Origin: the human T2T-CHM13v2.0 reference genome, Homo sapiens
DNA: 64,000 nucleotides
Direction: 5' to 3' (one strand)
NCBI RefSeq assembly: GCF_009914755.1
Contig: NC_060940.1
Positions within the stretch are counted from its first letter, which is position 1. Each line of letters starts with the position of its first letter. The notes under the pieces were generated by a model. It was not told where the DNA came from, did not search any database, and was given only the letters and a program-made list of their open reading frames with translations. Positions 44,262 through 56,616 of the stretch are shown here, piece after piece. The translations under genes were made by a program, and so were the position numbers.

Positions 44262-45733
44262 TCAGGAGGCTGAGCCAGGAGAATTCACTTGAACCCGAGA
44301 GGCAGAGGTTGTAATGAGCTGAGATCGCACCACTGCACTCCAGCTTAGGGAACACAGCCAGACTCTGTCCCCCCCAAAAAAACAAAACAAAACAAAGAGC
44401 TAAGAGTAATGGGCCATAATGAAGCACTCACGACGACTGTCATAGGTGCTTGACCTGCACATGTCCCTGCGACAGGGAATTAGTCATTTTATGGACGAGA
44501 AAGCAAGGCAGGCATGTCAGCGCGCTGTCCACTTTTAAAACGGTAACCCGGGCAACCGAAGGCCAGAAATGGCTGTCTCTTTTTTTTTAAGCCAGTCACA
44601 TTGAGCAGTGGGGTGCATCTTTCATAACTGAGAGGCATCACAGGGCAGTGGCTGACATAGACGTGGCTAGGAGACTACCAGCCCGTCTGTGCGCGCATTC
44701 CTTTCCGTCCCAGTAAAATGGGGCTGACAGCATCTCCTTCATGGAATTATTACCAAACGCAGTCACAAACGCGGAGAAGCGCTCATGCAGGTGCAAGGCG
44801 TTTTCGAATTGCTAGCACTCGGGACCGCTGCCAGCAGCCGCGCCTGGAAGGGACGCGGCTGCCTGTTAGTGCGGCCGGCGCAGGCGCAGGCACAGCACGC
44901 GGCCGCTCGGGCCACCCCGGGCCGCGGAACGACTCGCAAGCAGCCAGCCTGACGGCGGCGCCGCCACGCGCGTGCGCGAGACGCCAGGCTGTCTGTGGGC
45001 CGCGCCGAGCGGCGGAAAGGCGGCGATGACTTAACTGGCTGTGGAACGGAACCTCTTGCAGCCGCGCGCCCCCCGGCGGCCAACCGCCCCCAACGCCTCA
45101 GGCCCCGCGTCTCCGCCCCTCGCCTCGACGCCATCAGGAGACCGGCCAATAAACAAACAGCAGGAAGAGGCGGGGCCCTGTAGTAACCGCCCCAAACACC
45201 TACTTCTAACCAGTCGAGTCACAAGACTGGGGGGAAGGGCGGAGCCAATCCGACGTAACCCAATCCAAGATTTGAGGGCGGTTACATGCACCCACTCCCT
45301 CGGGTTTGGCTCCGCCCCTCACCTTGACGTAGCCCTCCCAGCCTATCAACGACTGCGCCCGTTGGGGGTGAGGGGAAGGGGGCGGAGCGTGGGAGGAGGC
45401 CGAGAGAGGAAGGAGGCGTAGGCTGAGGAGGAAGAGGGAGGAGGGGTAGGGAAGTCCTGGCGGAGAAGCGCCCTAAGACTCCAAAGGAGACAACAGGAGT
45501 TTGTGCTGGAGCTCCCCCGCTGCCCATCGGCCGTTCCGGATCCCCTAAGGCCCAAGTCGGACAGAGACGGAGGAAAGGAGGAAGAGACTTTTATGTCGGC
45601 GGACAGGGGAGCTGTACCCGTCACCGTTGCCTCACATCCGGGGCTTTGGAGGGCTGGCCTCGCTGCCCCGCCCCGCCTCGCGCCTTTCATGGCGACCGGA
45701 GGCGGAGGCTGGAGGAGCTGGGCCCGGAGGAGG

Positions 45734-46372
45734 CCCCTTTAAATCTCCTTAAAGGGGTGGCCACTGAACTCGGCGGACTGCAACGCCAGCCTTAAAGGGG
45801 AAGCCGCCGAGCAGACGCTGACAAATTGAGAACTGTGCCGTTGGGAGAACTGGGGCGAGTGGGGTTTTTCTTTACGTCCTCCTCCCCCACACACAAGAAG
45901 TCTTTTAAATTCAACTTAAAGGGGAAGTGGCCGCTTGTGGAGGACTAGAAACTAACTCCGAGCCCTTAAAGGGACGGCCTGCTGTTAGAAGGACCCTGGA
46001 CTCCTTAAAGGGGTGGCCTCTTTGAGCCGGAGGACTTGAGACACTTTTAAAGGGGAGGTCTGCGTTTCGGGGCGAGCTTTCGGCCCCTTTTAAAGGGGTG
46101 GCCCTTCCTCTTCCTCGGGGAGACTTGCATCGACCCCTGGCAGGGGGTGGCCACCGCACTAGGCCGCCGGACACTGTCGGGTCGTCTTAAAGGGGCCGGG
46201 AGCTGGACAACTTGGGGCCTCGCCTTAAAGGGACGGCCGCCCCGTTTTCGCCGTCGCGGCCCCGCCGAGCCCGCAGGGGGGGCCCTCGGGCTTGTCGCCC
46301 CGGGGGCGGCGCCGGCTCCCCGGGCCGTGGCCTTGGGGCAAGCTCGGGGCCAGCAGATCCGGCTTTAAAGGA
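45734..46372 (+). repeat. Array of short TTAAAGGG direct repeats separated by unique spacers
   Basis: Nine exact copies plus one inverted and one TTAAAGGA (see findings). Confidence 0.9.
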
Positions 46373-46489
46373 GAAGCCGTGGCCCTCTCGTCACTGTGCA
46401 GCCGCCAGCGCCGCGCCTGCGACCCCGGGCCTGCGGACAGGCCGCTTCGGGCCCCGCCGCCTCCGGATGCGGCGCTGAGGGCGGTCGCC

Positions 46490-56616
<10,127 letters not shown>

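What the first reader, a model, noticed from the sequence alone, without database searches (positions are those of the whole stretch)
45734..46372. Phased, co-oriented TTAAAGGG repeat-spacer array in the FBRS promoter/5' leader
Seen: exact TTAAAGGG at 45749, 45792, 45916, 45966, 46005, 46047, 46090, 46187 and 46225, TTAAAGGA at 46365, and one inverted copy at 45734. The inverted copy and the first direct copy form a 9-bp stem, CCCCTTTAA-atctcc-TTAAAGGGG. Extended consensus is (C/T)(C/T)TTAAAGGG(G/A)(T/C)GGCC. Spacings are 43, 124, 50, 39, 42, 43, 97, 38 and 140, i.e. a ~42-bp (four helical turns) mode, with mostly unique spacers that sometimes contain GGACT(A/T)G. Nine copies of an AT-cored 8-mer within 480 bp of a GC-rich island is not explained by any repeat family or by the protein. 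Known: its reverse complement matches the conserved orphan promoter motif CTTTAAR, for which I know no assigned factor. Inference: a homotypic binding platform for an unidentified DNA- or RNA-binding factor controlling a PRC1.3/1.5 subunit, possibly by feedback. Alternatives are an array of TATA-like initiation sites or a leader element placing UAA stops in all three frames.
Basis: partly seen in the sequence, partly recalled or inferred. Interest (0 to 1): 0.8.

Follow-up and report, generated by a model that had tools for sequence, protein, structure and literature searches.

The report
Unique TTAAAGGG site cluster in FBRS leader
The first exon of the human FBRS gene carries nine perfect, same-direction copies of a short DNA word whose surroundings have drifted to randomness, an arrangement seen at no other place examined in the genome, and it most likely serves as a landing pad for a still unnamed regulatory protein.

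Summary
Nine exact same-strand TTAAAGGG copies, one TTAAAGGA and one exact inverted copy lie in 45734-46378, inside the annotated FBRS 5' leader. Dinucleotide shuffles of that stretch give 0.05 copies.

- **Not a current minisatellite.** TRF finds no array there. Pairwise identity among aligned units is 100% in the 8-mer, 55% in the next six bases and 32% in the spacers, against 27% expected at random. Copies are perfect or gone, so the word looks selectively kept.
- **Single copy and genome-unique.** The 881-base stretch matches only itself. TTAAAGGGRNGGCC has 96 matches genome-wide, 5 of them here, with no other two within 10 kb. A two-site pattern hits only FBRS, 3 of 3.
- **Absent from paralogues.** About 5 kb upstream of the homologous exon 1 of AUTS2 and FBRSL1 holds none.
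- **Helical phasing is not supported** (10.5 bp: R 0.16). The regularity is a unit of about 44 bp.
- **RNA readings found no support.** No shared fold, no Rfam match and no 18S complementarity above chance.

Best reading (0.45): a homotypic binding-site cluster for an unidentified DNA-binding factor, built like the ZNF410 clusters at CHD4. The factor, cross-species conservation and the proposed PRC1 feedback are all untested.

The parts
45734..46378 (+). The whole array: one inverted copy, nine exact direct copies and one near copy of TTAAAGGG. It lies inside FBRS exon 1 (5' leader, hub annotation 45402-46948; coding starts at 46490).
   Evidence: 9 copies against 0.049 expected in shuffles
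45734..45742 (-). Inverted copy (CCCCTTTAA on the + strand). With copy 1 it forms a palindrome around a 6-nt centre. Its TAA (45740-45742) ends the 49-codon uORF.
45749..45762 (+). Copy 1, TTAAAGGGGTGGCC
45792..45805 (+). Copy 2, TTAAAGGGGAAGCC
45916..45932 (+). Copy 3, TTAAAGGGGAAGTGGCC; the GGCC part sits three bases further out
45966..45979 (+). Copy 4, TTAAAGGGACGGCC
46005..46018 (+). Copy 5, TTAAAGGGGTGGCC
46047..46060 (+). Copy 6, TTAAAGGGGAGGTC
46090..46103 (+). Copy 7, TTAAAGGGGTGGCC
46139..46152 (+). Ghost unit GGCAGGGGGTGGCC. The G-rich half is kept and TTAAA is lost. It sits midway in the 97-bp gap.
46187..46200 (+). Copy 8, TTAAAGGGGCCGGG
46225..46238 (+). Copy 9, TTAAAGGGACGGCC. 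Its TAA (46226) is the nearest in-frame stop upstream of the FBRS start codon.
46271..46284 (+). Possible second ghost unit (CCGCAGGGGGGGCC) in the 140-bp gap
   Evidence: weak
46365..46378 (+). Near copy, TTAAAGGAGAAGCC (one mismatch in the 8-mer)
45593..45742 (+). Upstream ORF of 49 codons in the leader, ending on the TAA of the inverted copy
45668..46117 (.). RefSeq 'enhancer' functional element. It covers the inverted copy and direct copies 1-7.
   Evidence: hub annotation supplied with the finding; the underlying experiment is not given and was not checked here

Best explanation
The array is a selectively maintained homotypic cluster of binding sites. Each site is a composite word of about 14 bp: TTAAAGGG, then G/A, any base, and usually GGCC. 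I propose that one sequence-specific double-stranded-DNA-binding factor, most plausibly a multi-zinc-finger protein, recognises it. The cluster sits just downstream of the annotated FBRS transcription start.

It probably arose by local tandem duplication of a unit of about 44 bp. Since then the spacers have diverged to random-level identity while the word has been kept. Many adjacent sites would give high, cooperative occupancy at this one locus even though single sites elsewhere are rare and probably unbound. That would set FBRS transcription, and activation is my guess, because the RefSeq 'enhancer' element overlaps copies 1-7.

Shown here: the copies, their excess over chance, the motif-versus-spacer contrast, single-copy status, genome uniqueness and absence from the paralogues. 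Inferred: selection on the word, action on DNA, the type of factor and the direction of the effect.
For: - **Excess.** There are 9 exact copies where dinucleotide shuffles give 0.049, with a maximum of 2 in 2000.
- **All or none.** Nine + strand copies have 0 mismatches and one has 1 mismatch in 45400-46600.
- **Motif against spacer.** Across eight aligned units, pairwise identity is 224 of 224 in the 8-mer, 93 of 168 in the next six columns and 230 of 728 (32%) in the spacers. Composition alone predicts 27%. Under equal decay at the spacer rate, nine intact 8-mers have a probability of about 1e-39 or less in a crude star-tree estimate.
- **No live tandem array.** TRF reports none in 45734-46372.
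- **Rarity of the composite motif.** TTAAAGGGRNGGCC has 96 matches in 3.1 Gb, 5 of them within 490 bp here. On my reading of the list, no other two lie within 10 kb.
- **Two-site pattern.** TTAAAGGGRNGGCC N15-45 TTAAAGGG matches 3 times in the genome, all in FBRS; the reversed control gives 0.
- **Inverted copy.** An exact inverted copy lies 6 bp from copy 1. Tandem duplication cannot produce it, and it is what a double-stranded site allows.
- **Overlap with an annotated element.** The hub annotation places a RefSeq enhancer at 45668-46117, over copies 1-7.
- **Precedent for the architecture.** ZNF410 has 15 and 11 copies of a rare 12-nt motif (434 instances genome-wide), each cluster within 1.5 kb, at CHD4 only (passages read).
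Against: - No binding factor is identified. Text searches for the word and its longer forms returned primer-type or unrelated papers in the listings. Nothing links FBRS to such a factor.
- Cross-species conservation, the decisive test of selection, could not be run, because no other vertebrate genome is held.
- The array is transcribed (leader of NM_001105079.3 in the hub table) and all direct copies share the sense orientation. An RNA-level word therefore explains the same facts.
- Co-orientation and the ~44-bp period follow from the duplication history and say nothing about binding.
- Positions 9-14 vary among copies (55% pairwise identity). The claim of a 14-bp site is softer than the 8-mer.
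- In reporter assays of the STARR type the tested fragment is itself transcribed. If the annotated enhancer comes from such an assay, it does not separate DNA from RNA effects.
Confidence: 0.45

Rival explanations
1. RNA-level element. The nine UUAAAGGG words in the 1.1-kb 5' leader are single-stranded binding sites for an RNA-binding protein, or another trans-acting RNA partner, that tunes FBRS mRNA translation, stability or localisation.
For: The array lies wholly inside the annotated leader (hub table). All nine exact copies and the near copy are in the sense orientation. The inverted copy can pair with copy 1 in a stable hairpin (-17.7 kcal/mol, z -2.2; 7 of 200 shuffles fold as well), which could mask or present one site. 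GGAC-type words are mildly enriched in the spacers (GGAC 9 against 4.6 expected, 14 of 500 shuffles reach 9).
Against: There is no shared fold. The 521-nt array has z -0.96, with 17 of 100 shuffles as stable, and 7 of 8 single-unit folds have z between -0.6 and +0.8. Rfam gives no match at E up to 1. Complementarity of the motif to 18S rRNA is no better than for shuffled motifs (best runs 9-12 against shuffled means 8.6-9.8 and maxima 11-14). Sense orientation is already explained by tandem duplication. I recall no RNA-binding protein with this word, but that is recall and not a search.
Confidence: 0.2
2. Core-promoter array. Each TTAAAGGG is a weak TATA-like element that positions initiation about 30 bp downstream. 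The leader would then hold a series of internal start sites giving shorter FBRS mRNAs.
For: The word is A/T-cored and followed by a G-rich stretch. In four units a GGAC(T) word begins 25-27 bases after the motif start (26, 26, 25 and 27), so pyrimidine-purine steps fall near +30, close to the TATA-to-start distance known from textbooks.
Against: The word departs from the recalled TATA consensus TATAWAWR at several positions. The invariant GGG and the preferred GGCC are not needed by such an element. Pyrimidine-purine steps occur everywhere, so the geometry is weak evidence. The annotated start (45402) is upstream of the whole array (hub table). No start-site data were available.
Confidence: 0.08
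3. Neutral relic. The array is what remains of an old minisatellite of about 44 bp, the retained words have no function, and their survival reflects chance or mutational bias.
For: Copy positions fit a period of about 44 bp (R 0.83). Ghost units with only the G-rich half fill the 97-bp and 140-bp gaps. A young 41-bp minisatellite with the same CCTTAAAGGGGC core exists on chromosome 12 (10.1 copies, 98% matches), so such units can amplify.
Against: Equal decay cannot leave 72 of 72 motif bases intact while spacers fall to 32% identity against 27% random. The mismatch distribution is all-or-none. The word holds no CpG, but neither do many spacer positions, so mutational bias does not explain the contrast.
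Confidence: 0.07
4. Stop-codon barrier. The array's role is to place UAA stops in all three frames, so that translation started upstream ends before the FBRS start codon.
For: The motif TAAs fall in frames 0, 1 and 2 relative to the main ATG. The 49-codon uORF ends on the TAA of the inverted copy. The nearest in-frame stop before the main ATG is in copy 9.
Against: Only 3 of the 8 or more invariant bases are needed for a stop. Sixteen of the 27 stops in the leader lie outside the copies. ATG is not depleted in the array beyond expectation (0 observed against 1.2 expected; 126 of 500 shuffles have none).
Confidence: 0.05

Closest known systems
[quoted passage not shown]
   Same: Many copies of a long, genome-rare word packed into a short stretch at one chromatin-regulator gene, with no comparable cluster elsewhere. 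ZNF410: a 12-nt motif with 434 instances genome-wide, and 15 and 11 copies each within 1.5 kb. FBRS: a 14-nt degenerate motif with 96 instances genome-wide and 5 of them in 490 bp, plus 9 exact 8-mers in 484 bp (45749-46232).
   Different: For CHD4 the factor, its occupancy, vertebrate conservation and the expression effect are all demonstrated. For FBRS none of these is known. The FBRS copies are all co-oriented, spaced at about 44 bp and lie in the transcribed leader.
ZFP64 site cluster at the MLL (KMT2A) promoter (recalled; the original paper was not seen, only later papers citing it appear in the listing)
   Same: As I recall it, a zinc-finger factor owes its main target to an unusually dense run of its motif in one promoter.
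   Different: Recalled only. Motif, spacing and position were not compared here.
Minisatellite / VNTR, for example the 41-bp array at G000:C12:4980011 (L012 1487-1901)
   Same: Unit length of about 41-44 bp. The chromosome 12 unit even contains CCTTAAAGGGGC. The FBRS array probably began this way.
   Different: The chromosome 12 array has 10.1 copies at 98% matches over the whole unit (TRF score 802). At FBRS, TRF finds nothing and only the word is shared.
Orphan conserved promoter word CTTTAAR (the name occurs in 14 papers, search listing only)
   Same: The reverse complement of TTAAAG fits it.
   Different: CTTTAAR is a 7-mer found in very many promoters. The FBRS word is longer (8 invariant bases plus a preferred GGCC) and its clustering is unique. 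No factor for CTTTAAR turned up in the listing, and I did not open those papers.

Membership tests
Homotypic TF-site cluster giving single-locus specificity (ZNF410/CHD4 type) | Many copies of one long, rare motif within about 1.5 kb | tested here: met
   Nine exact 8-mers, one near copy and one inverted copy in 645 bp. Five matches to the 14-nt degenerate motif in 490 bp, out of 96 genome-wide.
Homotypic TF-site cluster giving single-locus specificity (ZNF410/CHD4 type) | No comparable cluster elsewhere in the genome | tested here: met
   The two-site composite pattern hits FBRS only, 3 of 3, with 0 in the control. No other pair of the 96 motif matches lies within 10 kb. In the three-site scans, the rows that read as tandem repeats (identical spacers in the 80 nt printed) come from C1:239500459, C2, C8, C9, C12, C18, C20 and C23. 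Three loci (C5:108670331, C5:167644179, C1:42478534) were not examined further. Raw hit counts in those scans do not exceed the reversed-pattern controls.
Homotypic TF-site cluster giving single-locus specificity (ZNF410/CHD4 type) | Motif copies conserved across species | not testable with these tools
   No other vertebrate genome is held. Only the within-array contrast (100% against 32% identity) speaks for selection.
Homotypic TF-site cluster giving single-locus specificity (ZNF410/CHD4 type) | Occupancy by a defined sequence-specific protein, and an expression change when the factor or the sites are lost | not testable with these tools
   No ChIP, footprint or perturbation data were available. 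Paper searches found nothing.
Minisatellite / VNTR | Head-to-tail units similar over their whole length | tested here: not met
   TRF at minimum score 30 reports no array in 45734-46372. Spacer identity is 32% against 27% random.
Minisatellite / VNTR | Regular unit period | tested here: inconclusive
   The best period is 43.9 bp with R 0.83, but it is the best of a scan over many periods. Individual spacings range from 38 to 50, with multiples beyond that.
Structured RNA family (Rfam) or repeated RNA hairpin unit | Match to a covariance model, or a fold shared by the units and better than shuffles | tested here: not met
   0 Rfam matches at E up to 1. Array z -0.96. Seven of 8 unit folds are not better than shuffles.
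rRNA-complementary translational enhancer in a 5' leader | Complementarity of the repeated word to 18S rRNA above chance | tested here: not met
   No exact complement of the 8-mer occurs in 18S. Best paired runs of 9-12 equal those of shuffled motifs (18S taken from L036).
Dispersed repeat / transposable element | Related copies elsewhere in the genome | tested here: not met
   The 881-base query 45600-46480 matches only itself. The stretch is not in the hub's list of masked repeats.
Feature shared by the AUTS2/FBRSL1/FBRS gene family | The same array upstream of the homologous first coding exon in the paralogues | tested here: not met
   Paralogue exon 1 was located by a back-translated pattern. 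There are 0 TTAAAGGG on either strand in the 6-kb stretches L034 (AUTS2) and L035 (FBRSL1), which reach about 5 kb upstream.

The most novel reading that the evidence does not exclude
FBRS has a private regulator. An as yet unassigned sequence-specific factor, probably a multi-zinc-finger protein, would have its only clustered recognition sites in the human genome in the FBRS leader. Like ZNF410 with CHD4, it would act essentially through this one gene and so set the dose of a PRC1.3/1.5 subunit. The array would then be a ready-made bait to identify that factor.
Probability: 0.2. Interest if true: 0.8.

Novelty: new member of a known kind. Interest (0 to 1): 0.6.

Why it matters
FBRS, with AUTS2 and FBRSL1, defines the PRC1.3/1.5 complexes (stated in reviews seen only in the listing). 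How its level is set is not described in the papers I could search: the phrase 'FBRS promoter' occurs in 0 papers.

A genome-unique cluster of a rare word is one of the few sequence signatures that predicts a dedicated regulator. It also gives a direct way to find that regulator, by pull-down with two or three units against word-mutated controls. If a dedicated factor exists, it would be a second example of the ZNF410/CHD4 logic and a selective handle on one Polycomb subcomplex. If the words turn out not to be conserved, the array is a curiosity of minisatellite decay.

Tried and rejected
- **Helical phasing:** rejected (Rayleigh R 0.16 at 10.5 bp).
- **Live tandem repeat:** rejected.
- **Dispersed repeat or pseudogene copy:** rejected.
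- **Rfam family:** none.
- **Common RNA fold per unit:** none.
- **18S rRNA complementarity:** at chance level.
- **ATG depletion of the array as a sign of a scanned leader:** not significant (0 against 1.2 expected).
- **GGACT as a second motif or m6A-type word:** only weakly enriched, and the broad DRACH pattern is not enriched (15 against 12.6 expected).
- **Array shared with AUTS2 or FBRSL1:** no.
- **Locating the paralogue exon 1 by protein search:** failed because of low-complexity hits. A back-translated pattern then worked.
- **Other genomic matches of the exact 14-mer as promoter sites:** of 13 outside FBRS, I examined the 8 that were given loci. Only 1 of those 8 (L001) lies in CpG-rich DNA, so there is no sign of a promoter-wide motif.
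- **Candidate factors by recalled consensus.** None of these was tested with a motif library.
  - SRF/CArG, CC(W)6GG: the copies have five A/T and then G, and only 5 of 9 have CC before the word.
  - SP/KLF GT-box: only the three GGGGTGGCC copies resemble it.
  - CTCF: only the ghost unit at 46139 looks faintly similar.
  - TCF/LEF and TATA-binding protein: the core differs from both consensus words.
- **Paper searches.** None produced a relevant paper.
  - TTAAAGGG: 745 papers, 20 listed.
  - CCCTTTAA with 'motif' and 'transcription factor': 129 papers, 25 listed.
  - Six longer forms of the word: 133 papers, 40 listed, mostly viral and qPCR primer papers by title.
  - FBRS with ChIP-seq, motif, promoter and zinc finger: 6 papers.
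  - FBRS with ZNF410: 3 papers.
  - 'FBRS promoter': 0 papers.
  - The Motif-Cluster paper PMC13466046 does not mention FBRS in its main text; its supplements were not opened.

Full report
**1. What is there**

- Exact TTAAAGGG on the + strand starts at 45749, 45792, 45916, 45966, 46005, 46047, 46090, 46187 and 46225.
- An exact inverted copy lies at 45735-45742.
- TTAAAGGA is at 46365. It is the only one-mismatch + strand copy between 45400 and 46600.

The window as a whole has 12 matches where dinucleotide shuffles give 3.82, and 0 of 100 shuffles reach 12. Within 45734-46372 there are 9 copies where shuffles give 0.049, with a maximum of 2 in 2000. By the hub's gene table, all of this lies inside FBRS exon 1 (45402-46948), upstream of the start codon at 46490, so it is in the annotated 5' leader.

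**2. Shape of the repeat**

Anchoring on the word shows a composite site. The base before it is C in 7 of 9 copies and the 8-mer is invariant. Position 9 is G in 7 of 9 and position 10 has no majority. Position 11 is G in 6 of 9, position 12 is G in 9 of 9, and positions 13 and 14 are C in 6 and 7 of 9.

Tandem Repeats Finder at minimum score 30 reports no array in this stretch. I aligned eight units and one 'ghost' unit with MAFFT (alignment A1). Over the eight true units, pairwise identity is:
- 224 of 224 in the 8-mer;
- 93 of 168 (55%) in the next six columns;
- 230 of 728 (32%) in the spacers, against 27% expected from composition alone.

Copy positions fit a period near 44 bp (R 0.83 at 43.9 bp, the best of a scan). 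They do not fit the helical repeat (R 0.16, p about 0.78 at 10.5 bp). Units that kept only the G-rich half (GGCAGGGGGTGGCC at 46139, and possibly 46271) sit in the 97-bp and 140-bp gaps.

My reading is an old local tandem duplication of a unit of about 44 bp. Its spacers have since randomised, while the word has been held intact in nine units and lost outright in a few. With the spacer-derived retention rate, nine intact 8-mers have a probability of about 1e-39 or less in a crude star-tree estimate. The exact figure means little, but equal decay is excluded. Selection on the word is thus an inference from the array itself, not from other species.

**3. Uniqueness**
- The 881 bases 45600-46480 match only themselves in the 3.1-Gb assembly, so this is no dispersed repeat or pseudogene copy.
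- The exact 14-mer TTAAAGGGGTGGCC occurs 16 times genome-wide, 3 of them here.
- The degenerate TTAAAGGGRNGGCC occurs 96 times, 5 of them within 490 bp here. From the printed list, no other two lie within 10 kb; the closest pair, on contig 18, is 12.8 kb apart.
- The two-site pattern TTAAAGGGRNGGCC N15-45 TTAAAGGG has 3 matches, all in FBRS, and the reversed control has 0.

Three-site patterns with gaps of 20-81 give 10-18 rows each. These totals do not exceed the reversed-pattern controls (18 against 24, 10 against 16, 11 against 14, 13 against 106), because true minisatellites dominate both. In the 80 nt printed, the rows from contigs 2, 8, 9, 12, 18, 20 and 23 and from C1:239500459 show identical spacers and are therefore tandem repeats. 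Three loci (C5:108670331, C5:167644179, C1:42478534) I did not examine further.

One of the minisatellites, on contig 12, has a 41-bp unit containing CCTTAAAGGGGC, with 10.1 copies at 98% matches. It shows what a young array of this kind looks like, and it shares nothing else with FBRS.

Of the 13 exact 14-mers outside FBRS, I looked at the 8 that were given loci. One of those 8 lies in CpG-rich DNA.

**4. Paralogues**

A protein search with the exon 1 translation returned only low-complexity hits. A back-translated pattern of its conserved C-terminal residues found exactly three places: FBRS, contig 7 (AUTS2 by position and sequence) and contig 12 (FBRSL1). The 6-kb stretches reaching about 5 kb upstream of those two exons hold no TTAAAGGG on either strand. 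The array is therefore specific to FBRS and is not a family feature.

**5. RNA-level tests**
- Rfam gives no match at E up to 1.
- The 521-nt array folds no better than shuffles (z -0.96, 17 of 100 as stable).
- Seven of eight single-unit folds have z between -0.6 and +0.8. Only the palindrome formed by the inverted copy and copy 1 is stable (-17.7 kcal/mol, z -2.2, 7 of 200 shuffles as good).
- I tested the idea of repeated rRNA-complementary leader elements against an 18S gene taken from the same assembly. The 8-mer has no exact complement there, and the best paired runs (9-12) equal those of shuffled motifs.

A linear RNA word bound by a protein remains possible and is my main rival.

**6. 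Coding and stops**

No ORF of 40 or more codons crosses the array on the + strand. A 49-codon uORF (45593-45742) ends on the TAA of the inverted copy. The motif TAAs fall in all three frames, and the nearest in-frame stop before the main ATG is in copy 9. However, 16 of the 27 stops in the leader lie outside the copies, and a stop needs 3 bases, not 8 or more. ATG is not significantly depleted in the array (0 against 1.2 expected, 126 of 500 shuffles have none).

**7. Mechanism**

The features are a long rare word, many copies, a unique cluster, an extra inverted copy, and overlap of copies 1-7 with a RefSeq 'enhancer' element. That element spans 45668-46117 in the hub annotation, and its experimental source is not given. 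These features fit a homotypic binding-site cluster for one sequence-specific DNA-binding factor.

The closest described case is ZNF410 at CHD4. There a 12-nt motif has 434 instances genome-wide, with 15 and 11 copies, each cluster within 1.5 kb, found only at that gene. The clusters are conserved in vertebrates and required for CHD4 expression (bioRxiv 10.1101/2020.08.31.274324; abstract and passages read).

For FBRS only the sequence-level criteria are met. Occupancy, conservation and effect could not be tested. I could not name the factor:
- Comparisons with recalled consensus words (CArG, GT-box/KLF, CTCF, TCF/LEF, TATA) fit poorly or fit only a minority of copies.
- No motif library is held here.
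- Text searches for the word and its longer forms gave primer-type or unrelated papers in the listings.
- Searches joining FBRS with ChIP-seq terms, with ZNF410 or with 'promoter' gave nothing relevant.
- The 2026 Motif-Cluster paper does not mention FBRS in its main text; its supplements were not opened.

**8. Verdict**

I file it as a new member of a known kind of element, with a confidence of 0.45 for the DNA-platform reading. The decisive checks are cross-species base-level conservation and public ChIP or footprint data over chr16:31,045,734-31,046,378 of T2T-CHM13v2.0.

Noticed in passing
window 45593-45742: A 49-codon upstream ORF in the FBRS leader, with a second in-frame ATG at 45689. 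It ends exactly on the TAA inside the inverted motif copy, which is also the 5' arm of the one stable hairpin.
   Followed up: partly
L012 1487-1901 (G000:C12:4980011 onward): A young 41-bp minisatellite, 10.1 copies at 98% matches, whose unit contains CCTTAAAGGGGC. The core word and unit length match the FBRS array, but nothing else is shared and the surrounding DNA is not CpG-rich. Probably coincidence.
   Followed up: partly
window 46139-46160: The ghost unit reads CTGGCAGGGGGTGGCCACC, which faintly resembles the CTCF core as I recall it. It was not scored with a matrix.
   Followed up: no
window 45370-45452 and 46807-46896: Purine-rich GGA/GAG runs sit at the annotated FBRS start site (TRF rows 45370-45452). 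A second run lies in the coding part of exon 1, where it encodes the poly-Glu tract (TRF row 46807-46896; translation).
   Followed up: no
window 45684-45700: TTTCATGGCGACCGG, preceded by a GC-box-like CCCCGCCCCGCC, looks like a YY1-type ATGGCG site just upstream of the array. The consensus is recalled. It could mark an internal start region about 270 bp downstream of the annotated start.
   Followed up: no
window 46225-46917, minus strand: A 230-codon antisense ORF runs across the GC-rich coding exon 1. This is the usual artefact of high G+C and a low-complexity sense frame, with no sign of a gene.
   Followed up: no
G000:C5:108670331, G000:C5:167644179, G000:C1:42478534: Three loci with three TTAAAGGG copies at spacings of 59-89 bp. 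In the 80 nt printed, their spacers are not obviously tandem. All look AT-rich or repeat-like and none was fetched.
   Followed up: no
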